A stretch of DNA of 64,000 nucleotides, taken from positions 192,001 through 256,000 of the forward strand of contig CAXXVS010000002.1 in NCBI GenBank assembly GCA_963674755.2, written 5' to 3'. Of the stretch, positions 29,552 through 38,863 are shown piece by piece. Position 1 is the stretch's first letter; each line of letters opens with the position of its first letter. The translations under genes were made by a program, and so were the position numbers. Under the pieces are notes generated by a model. It was not told the origin of the DNA. It did not search any database and saw nothing but the letters and a program-made list of their open reading frames with translations. This DNA comes from Desulfobacterales bacterium. GTDB taxonomy: Bacteria; Desulfobacterota; Desulfobacteria; Desulfobacterales; UBA5852.

Positions 29552-29754
29552 AACGGGTCGCAAGACCCGTTGCCCTTGCATTGCGGACCTGGATTGCTTA
29601 GAGAAAAACACGCCGGCCTGCCCCAGTCCCATGCGAACAAGAGGAACATGGCAGAAGGGCCAACCCTGGCAGGCGACGGCGTATGAGGGGGCCGCTTGCG
29701 GTGCCAGCGGATGCGCAACCGATTCCGGCCCCCAAACGAGAGAGAAGGATAACC

Positions 29755-31482
29755 ATGATCGTACTCGGATTATCAGGATCCCTGACCCATGACCCTTCGG
29801 CCGCGCTTTTCGTGGACGGCCGTCTTGTGGCCGCGGCGGAGGAAGAGCGCTTTCTGCGCGACAAACACGCCAAACGCCAATGGCCTTACCATTCCGCCCG
29901 CTATTGCCTCGAGGCGGCCGGCGTCGCGCCGCACGCTATCGACGCGGTGGCCTTTCCCTTTGCGCCCTTCGGTTTCACCTATCCCGGGCGCTGGCATTTT
30001 GCCCGACGCTATTGGTACGCGCCCGATCGGGCCCTGAACGCCCTGTTCAACGGCAACCGGCTTTTCCGTCGCAACCGCAAAGCCATCCTGAATCTGATGC
30101 GTCAGCTCGCCATCGATCCTGACCGGACCCCCTTCGTGCCGGTGGCCCATCATCTCACCCATGCCAGCAGTGCCTATCATCTCAGCGGGTTTGAAGGCAA
30201 AACGGCCATTTTAGGAATCGACGGCAAGGGGGAATATGCCACAACCTTTTTCGGCTATGGTGAAAAGGGCCGCATTCATTGCCTCAAGGAATTTTACGAT
30301 CCCGATTCCCTGGGGGGGGTCTACGGCGCCATGACTCAGTATCTGGGCTTCGAAATGCTGGATGGGGAATTCAAGGTCATGGGCATGGCCCCTTACGGCG
30401 ACCCGGGAAAATACGATTTGGGACGGCTGATTCAAAGCGACGGCCGATCTTTCAGTGTCGATACCCGGCTGGTCAATACCGTCGGGCTGCGGCGCTATAA
30501 GCAGGACGGTTTGGGGTTCTACTTCAGCCCCAAACTCGTGGCATGGCTCGGTCCCAAACGGGAGGGCGACGAAATCGACGATCCCTATGTGGACTACGCC
30601 GCCAGCATGCAGAAGCTGCTGGAGGACGTGTCCCTGGAACTCATCGAGACCTATCTCGGGGATATCCTGCGGGAGACCGGCCGCCTGTGTTTCGCGGGCG
30701 GGGTGGCCTTGAACGTCAAGTTGAACCAGCGCATCATCGATCTGCCGTATGTGAAGGAGCTTTTCGTTCAGCCGGCGGCCAGCGATGCCGGCACGGCGGT
30801 GGGTGCGGCTTCCTATGTCGCCCATCAGATGGGGGATGCCATCCACAAGCAGGAGCACGTCTATCTGGGTCCCGCTTTTTCCACGGACGACTGCCGCCGG
30901 GCCTGCGAAGCGCATCCGGAAAGCCCCCTCTTCGAACAGGTCGAAGACGCGCCCCGGGCGGCGGCCGGTTTGCTGGCCGATGGGCATCCCGTGGCCTGGT
31001 TTCAGGGGCGCATGGAATTCGGCCCGCGTGCTTTGGGCAACCGCAGCATCCTGGGGGATCCCAGCCGGGCGGGTATCGCCGACCGCATCAACGCCCAGAT
31101 CAAGTACCGCGAGCGCTGGCGACCCTTCTGCCCCAGCATCCTGGACCGGGCGGCTGAAGATATTCTGCAGACCCGCCACCCGGCGCCTTACATGACCTTT
31201 GCCTTCACAGTGGCTGACCATTGGAAAAAGCGCATTCCGGAAGTGGTCCATATGGACGGTACCGCCCGCGCCCAGGTGGTGACCCGGGCCACCAACCCCC
31301 GCTACTACGCCCTGATCGAAGCATTGGAGGAGCTGCGCGGCGTTCCGGTGGTGCTCAACACATCCCTCAATCGACGGGGCGAACCCATCGTATGCACCCC
31401 CACCGATGCCCTGAACATGTTCTACGGATCCGATCTGCAATTTCTCTTTCTGGAGGATCTCCTGGTACGCAAGCGACCGTGA
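29755..31482 (+). CDS. O-carbamoyltransferase (NodU/CmcH family), similar to the Pseudomonas LPS-core carbamoyltransferase
   Basis: [66 protein letters not shown]-cluster context. Confidence 0.9.
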
Positions 31483-31506
31483 ATCCGACCGCCTTCCGCC
31501 TTTTGC

Positions 31507-32571
31507 TCAGAACGAGCGGCCGGCGGCCAGCGCCTGGCCCAGCTTGGCCATGACCATGGCGGGGGTAATGGCGGCCATGCAGGTGGTGTTCTTGCGGGGG
31601 CAGACCTTGCGGTAGCATCCCAGGCAGTCCCCGTCGGAGCGCACGACCAGGTCACGGCAGCGGTAGGGGGCCACCCGGTCCGGATCGGTGGGACCGAAAA
31701 GGGCCACATAGGGCGTTCCCACGGCGGCGGATATGTGCCCCGGGCCGGAGTCCGGACCGGCGGCGGCGACGGCCTGGCGCAGAATGGCGACCAATTCCGT
31801 CAGGGACGTTTTTCCGGTAAGATTCAGCAACCGATCCGATTCGAAGGCAGCTGTGAGATGCCCGGCCGGGCCGGTTTGCGACCTGTCGCCCACCAGGATC
31901 ACACCATATTCCCCGCGCGCCAGGATGGCTTGGGTGAGCCCCCGATAGCCCTCATAGGTCCAGTCCTTGGATATCCAGGAAGACCCCATGACGATGACGA
32001 TGTAAGGCGCCGGCCGGCGCAACCGCAACCCGTTCGGCGGATCATCGTCACCGACGGAAGACAAGCCGAAGTCGGGGCGATCGGAAAGCGACCCTCCCAG
32101 ATAGGAGATGAATTGGAGATAATGCTCCAGTTTGGGGCGCTGCGGGCTGAAATAGGGGAGATGATGGTTGTTGAACAGCCAGTTGAATTCCTTGGCGTTG
32201 CGGGGATGGACGCCGATGCGCTGGGGGGCACCGGAAAGCAGGGAAAAGAGGCCGCTTTTGAAATGGCGTTGCATATCCAGGGTGATATCGAAGCGGCGTG
32301 CGCTCAAAGCGTGCCTGAGATCCATAACGGCCGCTGCTTTGCGGGGACGGTCGAAAACAATGACCTCATCGATCAGCGGGTGGCGGTCCACGAGGGGCTT
32401 CCAGCGGGGTTCCACAAGCCAGGTGACGGTGGCCGCGGGCCAGTTGTGTTTGATTTCACCGGGAAGGCAAAGCCCCCGCACCAGGTCTCCCAGGGCGCCC
32501 ATCAGGACAACCAGAATGGCGCTGTTGCGGGAAATCGGTGGGGGCGATGTTTGCTGTCGGATGTCGCTCAT
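31507..32571 (-). CDS. GT9 LPS heptosyltransferase (WaaC/OpsX-like)
   Basis: MGALGDL, TWLVE, DMQRHFKS, GKTSL.EL, DSGPGHIS, LFGPT. Confidence 0.88.
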   Translation of the reverse strand: MSDIRQQTSPPPISRNSAILVVLMGALGDLVRGLCLPGEIKHNWPAATVTWLVEPRWKPLVDRHPLIDEVIVFDRPRKAAAVMDLRHALSARRFDITLDMQRHFKSGLFSLLSGAPQRIGVHPRNAKEFNWLFNNHHLPYFSPQRPKLEHYLQFISYLGGSLSDRPDFGLSSVGDDDPPNGLRLRRPAPYIVIVMGSSWISKDWTYEGYRGLTQAILARGEYGVILVGDRSQTGPAGHLTAAFESDRLLNLTGKTSLTELVAILRQAVAAAGPDSGPGHISAAVGTPYVALFGPTDPDRVAPYRCRDLVVRSDGDCLGCYRKVCPRKNTTCMAAITPAMVMAKLGQALAAGRSF

Positions 32572-32643
32572 GGGCCAAACGTTTCTAACTAACAGCGGTC
32601 GCTCACGGCCGGCCGGCTACCGGACACGGCCGCGTTCGGGTGT

Positions 32644-33330
32644 TCATGGACCGGCGGCCAGGGTCATGATCTGTGCCAATTCAGCCGGCAGGCCATGTTT
32701 GACGATGGCTCGTTCCCAGCGTTGGCGATAGCGTTTCTTCAGCCGGCGCCGGTTGTTGGTATAACACGCTTTGTCGAAGTCGATGATATGGGGCTCGTTC
32801 TTCCTGTCCACTAAGACATTGCCCGGATGCAGATCAGGGTGCCAGATGCCATGCGTCATCAAGATCCGGATCTGGTCCGCGACCTGGATGCGCAACCCAT
32901 TATCCAGCCTGCCATATTGCACGGTTTGGATCAAGGAGCAGTGTTCCGCCAGGGCCTCCATGATCAGCCAGCATTGCCCGCTGACCCGGCCCCGGATCGC
33001 AAACGCGATGGGCTTTGGCGCGGCAATCCCGATCCGGCGGACGGTTTCCAGCCAGCGGAATTCCCGTTCGCTCCGGCTCCGGGGCCAGTGGATATAACGA
33101 TTCCGGTTGAAGTGCCGGATCATCCCCCCCCGGGCAAATTGTTTCACCGCCACCGATCCGATGTCCTCCACCGCCACGATGGTAACGACCTGGCGGCCGG
33201 CCAGGACACCCTGAGCCTGCGCCGGCCGCTGGTCGAAGACCGTTTGCAATTGCTGAAGCTGTCGGGGGGTGAGAGGCCGACAGGCTTCCAGACGGATCCC
33301 GTGATCATCGTGGCGGTGCAAAGCGCTCAT
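32644..33330 (-). CDS. kdkA: Kdo kinase-like LPS kinase (KdkA family)
   Basis: GR..V, K.F.RGG...HFNR.RY, RS.REF, P.P, HPDLHPGNVL, IIDFDK; in the waaA operon. Confidence 0.7.
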   Translation of the reverse strand: MSALHRHDDHGIRLEACRPLTPRQLQQLQTVFDQRPAQAQGVLAGRQVVTIVAVEDIGSVAVKQFARGGMIRHFNRNRYIHWPRSRSEREFRWLETVRRIGIAAPKPIAFAIRGRVSGQCWLIMEALAEHCSLIQTVQYGRLDNGLRIQVADQIRILMTHGIWHPDLHPGNVLVDRKNEPHIIDFDKACYTNNRRRLKKRYRQRWERAIVKHGLPAELAQIMTLAAGP

Positions 33331-36151: not shown

Positions 36152-36988
36152 ATGGCTGTGCAACATCGTGTTTCGGTTGGTCCTGTAACCTGTGGTTCAG
36201 ACACCTTGTTTTTGATTTCAGGGCCCTGTGTCATCGAAGATGAGTCTATCATGATGCAGACGGCGGAACGATTGAAAGAGCTGTCCCAGCGTCTGAAGCT
36301 GCCCCTGATCTTCAAGTCGTCCTTCATGAAGGACAACCGCAGTGCCATAGAGCATTTCCACGGCCCCGGGCTGGACAAGGGGTTGGCCCTGCTGGCGAAA
36401 ATCCGGGAGACCTTTGATGTCCCCATCATTACCGATGTGCATTTCCCCGAACAGATCGGGCCGACGGCCGCAGTGGCCGACGTGATCCAGATCCCCGCTT
36501 ATCTTTGCATGCAAACCGAGTTGGTGATTACAGCAGCCAGGACGGGGCGGGCCATCAACATCAAGCACGGGCAATTCCTGGCGCCCGCCAACATGATCAA
36601 GCCCGTCCAGAAAATCGAAAGCTTCGGGTATCATGACATCCTGCTGACGGAACGCGGCTATACCTTCGGCTACAATGACCTGGTGGTCGATCCCCGCAGC
36701 TTCTATGAGCTGCGCCAAATCGGCTATCCGGTCGTTTTCGACATCACCCACAGTATCCGCCGCTACGGAATCCCCAGCAAAGATCCCCGGGGCAGCAGCC
36801 GTGAGTATCTCACGACCATCGCCCGCGCCGGTGTGGCCGCCGGCGTCGACGGGGTTTTTATCGAAACCCACCCGAACCCGCCGGAAGCGTTGTGCGATGC
36901 GGCCAGCCAACTGGCGCTCGATCAGATGGAAGCATTCCTCATGCCGTTGATCGAGATTCACAACCTTGTCAAGGAACAACGCGACTAG
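36152..36988 (+). CDS. kdsA: KDO8P synthase family protein, metal-dependent type, with divergent active-site motifs
   Basis: GPCVIE, KSSF.KDNRS, TDVH, QIPA, ERG.TFGYN.LVVD, FD.THS, F.E.HP.P..A.CD; RBS aagga. Confidence 0.88.
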   Translation: MAVQHRVSVGPVTCGSDTLFLISGPCVIEDESIMMQTAERLKELSQRLKLPLIFKSSFMKDNRSAIEHFHGPGLDKGLALLAKIRETFDVPIITDVHFPEQIGPTAAVADVIQIPAYLCMQTELVITAARTGRAINIKHGQFLAPANMIKPVQKIESFGYHDILLTERGYTFGYNDLVVDPRSFYELRQIGYPVVFDITHSIRRYGIPSKDPRGSSREYLTTIARAGVAAGVDGVFIETHPNPPEALCDAASQLALDQMEAFLMPLIEIHNLVKEQRD

Positions 36989-37100: not shown

Positions 37101-38126
37101 ATGGATTTATATCTTGATTCGGCCGACTTCAAGGAAATTGAAGAGGCCCTCCGTTTGGGATTTATCAAAGGGCTGACCACAACCCCCACTTTCATGCACC
37201 GGCACGGGATTACCGATATCGATGGTGCCATTGTCAAGCTTTCCGGCATGGTGCCGGAGCTTCAGGTGGAAGCACTGGGGGAAACGCACGACGAAATCGT
37301 CTCCGAGGCCCATCGCCTGCTGGATTTACCTCTGGTCAAAGCGCCCGTCTTCAAGGTGCCCGTCTCCCTTGAAGGACTGCGGGCCTGCAAGACCCTGACG
37401 GACGAGGGCCACCGCGTCAATGTCCATCTGATCTATACCCTGAATCAGGCCTACATGGCGATGGCCGCCGGGGCGGCCTTTGTCTGTCCCCTGGCCGGGC
37501 GGCTGCAGGACCAGGGGCATGAAGCGATTCTGCTCTATGAGCAATGCGTCGATCTGGTGGATCGCTACGACTATCCCACCAAGATCATGTTTTCTTCGGT
37601 GCGCTATCCCGATCACGTCCGGCAGGCTGCCTTGGCCGGCGTGCATGTCTGCACCGTGCCCTGGGGCGTCATGAAGCGCCTCTGCGACAACGCCCTGACC
37701 AAGGTCGGCACCGAGCAGTTCTTCGAACACACCCGCTTGATGACGGTCAAGGTGAAAGACGTCATCCGGGCGAACAATCCCGTCTGCCGCCTGGCGGATA
37801 CGGTGAAGAATGCCCTGGTGAAGATGACGGCCTCGCGCATCGGCGCGGTGACCCTCGTCGACGATGCCGGACAATTGGCGGGTATTTTTACCGATGGTGA
37901 CATCCGCCGCCGTTTGCAGGAAGGCGGCGACGGAATCCTGGACCGCGCCATGGGGGAGGCGGGATTTACGGCCGATCCGGTTTCCATCAATGCCGAGGCC
38001 CTGCTCTATGAAGCGGTCAACGTCTTCAATGCGCGCCAGATCGATAATATCGTCGTCCTGGAAGACAATCTTCCCATCGGGATATTGGATATTCAGGACC
38101 TCGTCAAAATGGGACTTCTGGGATAA
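37101..38126 (+). CDS. Transaldolase/FSA-family domain fused to a KdsD-type CBS pair, occupying the kdsD position
   Basis: Residues ~1-212 follow the TalC/FSA pattern (LYLDSA, G.TT.P, FKVP Schiff-base Lys85, P..GR, SSVR). Residues ~213-341 are a CBS pair with GIFTDGDIRR and GILDIQDL..G as in KdsD/GutQ. Confidence 0.85.
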   Translation: MDLYLDSADFKEIEEALRLGFIKGLTTTPTFMHRHGITDIDGAIVKLSGMVPELQVEALGETHDEIVSEAHRLLDLPLVKAPVFKVPVSLEGLRACKTLTDEGHRVNVHLIYTLNQAYMAMAAGAAFVCPLAGRLQDQGHEAILLYEQCVDLVDRYDYPTKIMFSSVRYPDHVRQAALAGVHVCTVPWGVMKRLCDNALTKVGTEQFFEHTRLMTVKVKDVIRANNPVCRLADTVKNALVKMTASRIGAVTLVDDAGQLAGIFTDGDIRRRLQEGGDGILDRAMGEAGFTADPVSINAEALLYEAVNVFNARQIDNIVVLEDNLPIGILDIQDLVKMGLLG

Positions 38127-38131
38127 CCGCC

Positions 38132-38863
38132 ATGGCTACCGATGCTGCCGCAAACCCGCCCTGGTTGAAAATTTTTCAAGGTCTGGGCGGCCAGTTCGTA
38201 ACGCCTCCGCCCCAATTGCGGCAGAAGTTCGTCCGCATCCGGGCGTTGATCTTCGATTGGGACGGTGTCTTCAATACGGGCGAAAAGGGGGAGCAGCAGA
38301 CCAGCTCCTACACCGAGCCCGACTCCATGGGCACCAACATGCTGCGGTTCGGGCTGTGGCTGCCCCAGGAGGTCATGCCGGTGGTGGCGGTCATCACCGG
38401 GGTCGAAAACCGCTCGGCCATGCACCTGGCCCGCCGTGAACATTTCCAGGACGTTTATTTCAGCATCCGCAATAAGGGCCTGGCCGTGACACACCTTTGT
38501 TCGGCCCATGGCATCCGCCCCGATCAGGTGGCCTGTCTTTTCGACGATATCAACGATCTCGAGATGGCCCAGGCCTGCGGTGTGCGGTGCCTGGTAGCCC
38601 GCGGCGCCAGCCCCATGTTCACCCGCTATGTCGTCCGCCGGGGCTTGACGGACTATGTCACGGGGTGCGGGCCCCATCGCCATGGGGTGCGCGAGTTCTG
38701 CGAACTGGCGCTGGCGGCCATGGAACGCTACGATCAGGTCATTGCGGCCCGCATGTCCTGGAACGCGCAATACCAAGCCTATTTCACCCAGCGGCAGGCT
38801 ATTTTGACCAATTTTTACACTCAGAGGGCGGACCAGATCAAACCGGCCGCCAATATTGCCTGA
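38132..38863 (+). CDS. HAD phosphatase, long divergent KdsC-like
   Basis: IRALIFDWDGVF motif I, VAVITG motif II, NK, FDDINDL motif IV, G....GVREFCEL as in KdsC; kdsC position. Confidence 0.75.
   Translation: MATDAAANPPWLKIFQGLGGQFVTPPPQLRQKFVRIRALIFDWDGVFNTGEKGEQQTSSYTEPDSMGTNMLRFGLWLPQEVMPVVAVITGVENRSAMHLARREHFQDVYFSIRNKGLAVTHLCSAHGIRPDQVACLFDDINDLEMAQACGVRCLVARGASPMFTRYVVRRGLTDYVTGCGPHRHGVREFCELALAAMERYDQVIAARMSWNAQYQAYFTQRQAILTNFYTQRADQIKPAANIA

What the first reader, a model, noticed from the sequence alone, without database searches (positions are those of the whole stretch)
37101..37610. Remodelled transaldolase active site fits neither TAL nor FSA
Seen (numbering of this protein, aligned by eye): kept are Asp6, Glu57 (TAL-type acid/base), Schiff-base Lys85, Asn107 and phosphate ligands Arg134/Ser166/Arg168. 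Changed are TTNP->TTTP (Asn28->Thr), the conserved Thr->His109, Ser/Ala->Cys129 and Phe/Tyr->Leu131. Known: the Glu/Phe versus Gln/Tyr pair distinguishes transaldolases from FSA, and the Asn/Thr/Ser positions line the pocket for the C1 hydroxymethyl of the ketose donor. Inference: His and Cys in that pocket could exclude the extra carbon (A5P is F6P minus C1) and provide new acid/base groups. This would suit an aldopentose-5-phosphate aldolase or an R5P<->A5P 2-epimerase (R5P and A5P are C2 epimers).
Basis: partly seen in the sequence, partly recalled or inferred. Interest (0 to 1): 0.75.

Follow-up and report, generated by a model that had tools for sequence, protein, structure and literature searches.

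The report
Rebuilt transaldolase feeding Kdo synthesis
This gene encodes a transaldolase-shaped enzyme with a rebuilt, conserved active site that travels with the Kdo-synthase gene in many bacteria lacking the usual arabinose-5-phosphate isomerase, so it probably makes that lipopolysaccharide precursor by an undescribed reaction.

Summary
All eleven residues are as stated. The changes are not drift: His109 and a non-aromatic 131 mark a subfamily separate from transaldolases and FSA. The gene (37101-38126) is a transaldolase barrel fused to a KdsD-type CBS pair, between kdsA and a kdsC-like gene. KdsD is found in 1 of 7 carriers versus 67 of 70 non-carriers in this class, and in 4 of 50 carriers across phyla. 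Eight carriers without KdsD keep a canonical KdsA, so the product is probably arabinose 5-phosphate (A5P; about 0.85).

- Asn28 binds the 4-OH, not C1, and about half the family keeps it.
- Cys129 is Thr in 5 of 80 loci, so His109, not a His/Cys pair, is the invariant novelty.
- Further changes sit at 55, 163 and 165, and the partner KdsA is itself remodelled (KDNRS).

The chemistry is untested. Odds: Schiff-base R5P/A5P 2-epimerase 0.42; Ru5P isomerase 0.2; octulose-8-phosphate transaldolase 0.12; glycolaldehyde aldolase 0.1. No paper describing it was found in five searches. This scan already reported the family on other genomes.

The parts
37101..38126 (+). Whole gene, 341 aa: remodelled transaldolase-family barrel fused to a CBS pair
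   Evidence: AlphaFold model mean pLDDT 90.7
37101..37739 (+). TAL/FSA barrel (residues 1-213), TalC-type with C-terminal helix
   Evidence: Pfam PF00923 E 7.5e-32; VIA Z 28.8, rmsd 1.5, 210 aligned to B. subtilis TAL 3r8r; Z 26.8 to FSA 1l6w
37116..37118 (+). Asp6 (kept; binds 3-OH and 5-OH of F6P in FSA/TAL)
37182..37184 (+). Thr28 (Asn in TAL/FSA; Thr in this branch only)
37263..37271 (+). Gln55 (Ser in 50 of 65 canonical barrels; His/Gln in 30 of 32 family members) and Glu57 (TAL-type acid/base)
37353..37355 (+). Lys85, Schiff-base lysine position
37419..37427 (+). Asn107 (kept) and His109 (the invariant new residue; Thr in TAL/FSA)
37485..37493 (+). Cys129 (Ser/Ala in TAL/FSA; Thr in 5 loci) and Leu131 (Phe/Tyr in TAL/FSA)
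37500..37604 (+). Phosphate ligands Arg134, Ser166, Arg168 (kept) and family-specific Met163, Ser165
37740..38117 (+). CBS pair most like the CBS pair of arabinose-5-phosphate isomerases
   Evidence: TIGR00393 positions 153-265; Foldseek ranks 1-4 are API CBS pairs 4o9k and 3k2v, rank 7 is 3fna
36152..36988 (+). Partner kdsA, metal-type (Cys26), remodelled: KDNRS for KANRS (36329-36343), Met120 for Aquifex Arg106, His139 for Lys124, Arg203 for Gln188; the only KdsA in the genome
38132..38863 (+). Divergent KdsC-like HAD phosphatase, third gene of the cassette (below curated cut-offs)
   Evidence: present in 62 of 86 loci

Best explanation
The protein is the A5P-supplying enzyme of a mobile kdsA*-TAL*-phosphatase cassette that has displaced KdsD. 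The role is inferred from genomics at about 0.85; the confidence given below is for role plus chemistry. Most likely chemistry (inferred, not shown): an aldopentose-5-phosphate 2-epimerase, ribose 5-phosphate <-> A5P. (1) The open-chain aldehyde C1 forms an aldimine with Lys85, where C2 of F6P binds; O2 sits on Asp6 and the phosphate on Arg134/Ser166/Arg168. (2) The vacated C1-hydroxymethyl pocket is partly filled by His/Gln55, Cys/Thr129 and Met163. (3) His109, taking the place of the Thr-held water next to Glu57 and given room by Phe->Leu131, acts as acid/base. C2 is inverted through the amino-enol, either by direct proton removal and return or by retro-aldol and re-aldol with G3P held in the site. 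(4) The imine is hydrolysed. The KdsD-derived CBS pair probably keeps feedback by CMP-Kdo (ligand recalled; entry titles were truncated).
For: Role: kdsA lies in 81 of 86 and 81 of 97 loci (44 of 45 with at least 1.5 kb on both sides), and the KdsD SIS domain in none. KdsD is in 1 of 7 carriers versus 67 of 70 non-carriers in the class, and in 4 of 50 carriers across phyla. No API-like SIS domain is found in the own genome, which has two ordinary transaldolases. All 5 genomes with both KdsD and the cassette have two KdsA. Eight KdsD-less carriers keep a canonical KdsA, and 31 of 145 loci pair the family with canonical KANRT KdsA. Chemistry: the Schiff-base and phosphate residues are fixed. A TAL in covalent complex with A5P has been solved (3upb title). 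FsaA and TalB F178Y form A5P through the glycolaldehyde nucleophile (PMC13550131, passages). A TIM-barrel lysine enzyme, NanE, epimerises C2 of an aldose phosphate (PMC8482478, passages). No second substrate-supplying enzyme is co-conserved in 177 loci. Asn28, needed for aldol activity in FSA variants, is dispensable in the family.
Against: There is no activity data, and no coordinates were available for docking. One invariant new base (His109) fits a one-face isomerase as well as an epimerase. Cys129 can be Thr. Asp6, Thr26, Glu57 and Asn107 are kept, so ketose binding is not excluded. Eukaryotic GFATs moonlight as API and rescue the E. coli kdsD gutQ mutant (PMC11301363, section 5), and the own genome has a divergent GlmS-like protein, so absence of KdsD alone is not proof. 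The partner KdsA is remodelled in 114 of 145 loci, which could mean another substrate. Many genomes are draft assemblies of unknown completeness, and kin are not independent.
Confidence: 0.42

Rival explanations
1. A drop-in Ru5P <-> A5P isomerase working without a covalent adduct. Lys85 or His109 moves the proton between C1 and C2 on one face of a cis-enediolate, while His109/Glu57 and Asp6 handle O1 and O2.
For: It is the same reaction as the displaced KdsD, whose CBS pair it carries. Only one new polar residue is invariant. NanE uses its lysine as a Bronsted base rather than a nucleophile.
Against: The whole Schiff-base constellation is fixed, and ordinary TAL traps A5P covalently (3upb title). 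By established chemistry a covalent route from Ru5P gives a Heyns/Amadori adduct and cannot release the isomer.
Confidence: 0.2
2. A true transaldolase re-specialised for D-glycero-D-ido-octulose 8-phosphate. Host transketolase makes the octulose from G6P, and this enzyme transfers its DHA unit to G3P, releasing A5P and F6P, as in the proposed L-type pentose pathway (reaction steps recalled).
For: The Glu57/non-Tyr131 signature is transfer-type. The donor-half residues Asp6, Thr26, Lys85 and Asn107 are kept, while acceptor-side 28, 131 and 165 change. [quoted passage not shown] Transketolase is present in 23 of 24 carriers.
Against: Bulkier residues at 55, 109, 129 and 163 suggest a filled C1 pocket (inferred). 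No transketolase is among the recurrent neighbour clusters. The same review says the evidence for the L-type pathway was questioned.
Confidence: 0.12
3. An A5P aldolase condensing free glycolaldehyde with G3P.
For: FsaA and TalB F178Y catalyse this reaction. His109 could replace Tyr131 as the proton donor. Residue 129 governs donor choice in FSA/TalB (PMC3962226, passages).
Against: No glycolaldehyde-producing gene recurs among the neighbours. FolB was not found in G000, G073, G223 or G031. Asn28 is lost in this branch although N28X abolished activity in FSA D6 variants. A host-independent cassette, also found on viral contigs, is more likely to draw on a core metabolite.
Confidence: 0.1
4. 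The cassette makes a Kdo variant: the enzyme supplies, or works on, a different sugar phosphate suited to the remodelled KdsA*.
For: KdsA* has four active-site changes. It was found in 6 of 251 class genomes, all of them carriers.
Against: The family also pairs with canonical KdsA (31 of 145 loci). Eight KdsD-less carriers keep a canonical KdsA. KdsA* is the only KdsA in this genome, beside waaA. The Arg loss at 120 with Arg gain at 203 and Asp gain at 61 looks compensatory (inferred).
Confidence: 0.07
5. An ordinary transaldolase with drifted residues, or a non-catalytic regulator.
For: Four CBS fusions nested in the family have lost Lys85, so catalytic decay does occur.
Against: His109, Leu131 and Met163 are fixed in 170 of 170 locus proteins while synonymous codons are mixed (His109 was in some search patterns). 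The family is separated from TAL/FSA by a branch of SH-aLRT 99.7. Two normal TALs are present.
Confidence: 0.03

Closest known systems
Small TalC-type transaldolases (B. subtilis 3r8r, T. maritima 1vpx, T. acidophilum 3s0c)
   Same: Fold (Z 28.8, rmsd 1.5), Asp6, Thr26/27, Glu57, Lys85, Asn107, phosphate site; 31-33% identity.
   Different: His109, Cys129, Leu131, Gln55, Met163, Ser165, Thr28; CBS fusion; Kdo cassette; 152 bits against a 245.95 cut-off for TIGR00875; separate clade.
E. coli fructose-6-phosphate aldolase FsaA (1l6w)
   Same: Fold (Z 26.8), Asp6, Lys85, Arg134, Ser166; FsaA can form A5P from glycolaldehyde and G3P.
   Different: Glu for Gln59, Leu for Tyr131, Asn/Cys for Leu107/Ala129; 25% identity.
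KdsD/KpsF/GutQ arabinose-5-phosphate isomerases
   Same: CBS pair, link to kdsA/kdsC, inferred product.
   Different: No SIS domain; unrelated catalytic fold; possibly a different substrate (R5P instead of Ru5P).
NanE, ManNAc-6-phosphate 2-epimerase
   Same: Works-like precedent: TIM barrel, catalytic lysine, C2 inversion of an aldose phosphate by proton transfer.
   Different: Different family; N-acetyl amino-sugar substrate; lysine described as a base; no homology shown here.

Membership tests
Transaldolase (TalC type) | TAL barrel with C-terminal helix | tested here: met
Transaldolase (TalC type) | Schiff-base Lys, Asp6, Glu60, Arg/Ser/Arg phosphate site | tested here: met
Transaldolase (TalC type) | Asn28, Thr110, Ser130, Phe132 | tested here: not met
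   Thr, His, Cys, Leu here; canonical residues in 62, 65, 60 and 60 of 65 controls
Transaldolase (TalC type) | Curated cut-off TIGR00875 | tested here: not met
   152.2 vs 245.95; the genome's own TalC scores 332.4
Transaldolase (TalC type) | DHA transfer activity | not testable with these tools
   needs an assay
Fructose-6-phosphate aldolase | Gln59 / Tyr131 pair | tested here: not met
   Glu57 / Leu131
Fructose-6-phosphate aldolase | Hydrophobic donor pocket Leu107/Ala129 | tested here: not met
   Asn107/Cys129
KdsD/KpsF/GutQ API | SIS catalytic domain | tested here: not met
   TIGR00393 matches only positions 153-265, 66.9 vs 203.7 bits
KdsD/KpsF/GutQ API | API-type CBS pair | tested here: met
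KdsD/KpsF/GutQ API | Ru5P/A5P isomerase activity | not testable with these tools
   needs an assay
NanE-type 2-epimerase | Homology or NanE active-site residues | not tested
   used only as a mechanistic precedent

The most novel reading that the evidence does not exclude
A Schiff-base ribose-5-phosphate/arabinose-5-phosphate 2-epimerase evolved from a transaldolase. It gives a second entry into Kdo biosynthesis from R5P, and it spreads as a cassette with a rewired KDO8P synthase across at least eight bacterial groups and viral contigs.
Probability: 0.42. Interest if true: 0.8.

Novelty: new variant of a known kind. Interest (0 to 1): 0.62.

Why it matters
It would fill the missing first step of Kdo/LPS synthesis in many bacteria that have no KdsD. 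It would add a new reaction to the much-engineered transaldolase/FSA scaffold, turning A5P from a covalent ligand into a product. It also warns that these proteins are mis-annotated as transaldolase or FSA. One complementation test in an existing E. coli auxotroph and three enzyme assays would settle the role and the chemistry.

Tried and rejected
Drift: rejected.

His/Cys two-base pair as an obligatory feature: weakened by Thr129 variants.

Thr28 as a family marker: rejected.

Hidden SIS-only API in the own genome: not found; the best hits are a GlmS-like protein and an RpiR-like regulator. One of 50 other carriers (G278) has a SIS-only hit below cut-off.

Physical complex of the enzyme with KdsA*: predicted once, no verdict.

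Using host metabolism to choose the substrate: not discriminating, as transketolase is in 23 of 24 and RpiA or RpiB in 22 of 24 carriers.

Second (degenerate) copy in five Bacteroidota carriers: none. ESM Atlas: only TAL_FSA leads below 0.9. Promoter/terminator scan: uninformative.

Docking and superposition at residue level could not be run because no coordinates are returned. The careful tree did not finish; the quick tree was used.

Primary papers on the A5P-TAL adduct, TalB F178Y and C. perfringens NanE were not held. Roles of TAL Thr110/Ser58 and of KDO8PS Arg106/Lys124/Gln188 are therefore recalled; two KDO8PS papers gave no passages on them. No supplements were read.

Full report
Observation. 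The finding lies in a 341-aa ORF at 37101-38126 (+). It has a TAL_FSA barrel (residues 3-211, E 7.5e-32) and a CBS pair. The model (mean pLDDT 90.7) matches small transaldolases best (Z 28.8, rmsd 1.5, 210 aligned) and FSA slightly less well (Z 26.8). The CBS pair, folded alone, matches the CBS pairs of arabinose-5-phosphate isomerases first. The protein passes no curated NCBIfam cut-off.

Is it drift? No. In the query plus 120 homologues at 69-90% identity, T28, C129 and L131 are 121/121 and H109 is 120/121. A less biased test used 50%-identity cluster representatives; 149 were aligned and 102 cover at least 85% of the barrel. Of these, 32 have His109, and all 32 also have Cys129, Leu or Cys at 131, Glu57 and Lys85. 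All 65 other Lys-bearing barrels have Thr109. Of 15 CBS fusions, 11 are His/Cys and 4 have lost Lys85; no canonical barrel carries a CBS pair. In a quick maximum-likelihood tree of 76 rows (about half of the canonical rows left out for time), the His family plus those four degenerate fusions lies on one side of a branch with SH-aLRT 99.7. In 170 locus proteins His109, Leu131 and Met163 are invariant while synonymous codons are mixed. His109 was part of the search patterns, but not.

Corrections to the reading. First, Asn28 is not a C1-pocket residue. PMC6099348 (passages) states that its side chain binds the 4-OH, that Asp6 binds the 3-OH and 5-OH, that N28X abolished activity in D6 variants, and that Thr26 lines the C1 cavity; Thr26 is kept here. 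Position 28 is Thr in 17 and Asn in 14 of 32 representatives, scattered over the tree. The Asn28 branch is just as tied to kdsA. Second, position 129, the donor-side residue in FSA/TalB (PMC3962226, passages), is Thr in 5 of the 80 loci where it was not selected for. One is in G031, 97% complete with no KdsD found. The thiol is therefore not obligatory. Third, other diagnostic changes were missed: Ser->His/Gln55, Leu->Phe31, Leu/Ile->Met163 and Ala->Ser165.

Context. The gene sits between kdsA (36152-36988) and a kdsC-like phosphatase (38132-38863) in an LPS region with waaA, lpxK, two GT9 genes and a lipid A acyltransferase. A genome scan gave at least 584 relatives; the best 80 span Desulfobacterales, Gamma- and Alphaproteobacteria, Bacteroidota, Scalindua, Leptospiraceae, Anaeromyxobacter, Nitrospira and Gemmatimonadota. 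kdsA lies in 81 of 86 loci, the kdsC-like gene in 62, waaA in 54 and the KdsD SIS domain in none (a few loci are duplicates between two searches). For the distant branch, in 80 metagenome and 17 viral loci, kdsA lies in 81 of 97, and in 44 of 45 with at least 1.5 kb on both sides. Recurrent neighbours are KdsA, phosphatases, WaaA and KdsB-type cytidylyltransferases; no enzyme that would supply a second substrate recurs widely.

KdsD displacement. The own genome (97% complete, 3 contigs) has no KdsD by family search or by a SIS profile, and it has two ordinary transaldolases. Of 251 class genomes, 7 carry the fusion. KdsD is in 1 of these 7 and in 67 of 70 non-carriers tested (70 of 244 given). 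Four of the seven are one genus. Across phyla, 4 of 50 carriers pass the KdsD cut-off and one more has a SIS-only hit (50 of 80 loci given, completeness unknown). All five genomes with both KdsD and the cassette have two KdsA, which suggests a native pathway plus an acquired one. It is better called a mobile cassette than KdsD's own slot. A caveat: eukaryotic GFATs rescue the E. coli API mutant (PMC11301363, section 5), and this genome has a divergent GlmS-like protein.

What is the product? The partner KdsA differs from Aquifex KDO8PS at four active-site positions: KDNRS for KANRS, Met for Arg106, His for Lys124 and Arg for Gln188 (residue roles recalled). This type was found in 6 of 251 class genomes, all carriers (in the seventh carrier the gene is cut at the locus edge). 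That raised the possibility of another substrate. Two results argue for ordinary A5P. In 31 of 145 loci the enzyme is paired with a canonical KANRT KdsA. And 8 of 37 KdsD-less carriers keep a second KdsA with canonical motifs (7 KANR[S/T], 1 KGNRT). Six of these are beside eno/pyrG-like genes (recognised from recalled N-termini), and two are on chromosome-length contigs; a KdsD SIS query found nothing in four of five of them and only E 7e-4 in the fifth.

Mechanism. Shown: residues, family, context and anti-correlation. Inferred: everything chemical. A5P equals F6P without C1, and a transaldolase in covalent complex with A5P is in the PDB (3upb, title only). FsaA and TalB F178Y form A5P from glycolaldehyde and G3P (PMC13550131, passages). 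With Lys85, Asp6, Glu57 and the phosphate site fixed, the simplest new step is inversion of C2 of an aldimine, with His109 as acid/base in the space freed by Phe->Leu. That would convert R5P to A5P. NanE is a precedent for a TIM-barrel lysine enzyme inverting C2 of an aldose phosphate (PMC8482478, passages). I give this 0.42. A non-covalent Ru5P isomerase gets 0.2. A transaldolase for glycero-ido-octulose 8-phosphate, as in the disputed L-type pathway (PMC4470864, passages and section 5), gets 0.12; the kept donor-half residues allow it. A glycolaldehyde aldolase gets 0.1, as FolB was not found in this genome and three class relatives but was found in one other carrier. Host enzyme content did not discriminate.

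Known or new. It is not a member of TAL, FSA or KdsD by their defining residues or domains, but it probably works like KdsD in the pathway. Five full-text searches aimed at such an enzyme gave 0, 3, 2, 2 and 0 papers. Three of the listed papers were read in passages or a section, the others as listings only; none described this family. Subscription journals were not searched and no supplements were read. Earlier agents of this scan reported the same family and role on other genomes and the KDNRS KdsA; one report is marked as partly fallen. Those notes are not independent support. Added here are the Thr129 variants, the dispensability of Thr28, the retained canonical KdsA in KdsD-less carriers and the octulose rival.

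Verdict. A real, conserved, undescribed enzyme subfamily on a known scaffold, very probably supplying A5P for Kdo, with unresolved chemistry. Interest 0.62.

Noticed in passing
window 36152-36988 (+): KdsA with KDNRS, Met for Arg106, His for Lys124 and Arg for Gln188; 114 of 145 cassette loci have the KDNR type, and it occurs only in carriers in the class sample.
   Followed up: yes
proteins P0129, P0133, P0138, P0159: Full-length barrel+CBS fusions nested in the family that have lost Lys85 and most site residues; possible pseudo-enzymes; genomic context not obtained.
   Followed up: partly
window 38132-38863 (+): KdsC-like phosphatase of 243 aa, far below curated cut-offs and forming its own cluster in 58 loci; in the Asn28 branch an unassigned protein of about 103 aa follows the gene in 41 loci.
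   Followed up: partly
L209-L225 (viral contigs): Seventeen viral contigs carry the family, 14 with kdsA in the locus, mostly CBS-less and with canonical-type KdsA.
   Followed up: partly
L238 (G000:C3, 1357-aa frame) and L239 (1522-aa frame): The genome's best GlmS match is an unusually long, divergent protein below cut-off; no typical ~610-aa GlmS surfaced in the SIS search.
   Followed up: partly
window 37188-37190 and 37728-37730 (+): Thr30 is kept but the partner position of T. acidophilum Asp211 is His210 in this branch and Asp in the other; may alter inter-subunit coupling (role recalled).
   Followed up: no
window 29683-33330: A carbamoyltransferase, a GT9 and a Kdo/WaaP-type kinase gene in the LPS cluster suggest core modification.
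   Followed up: no
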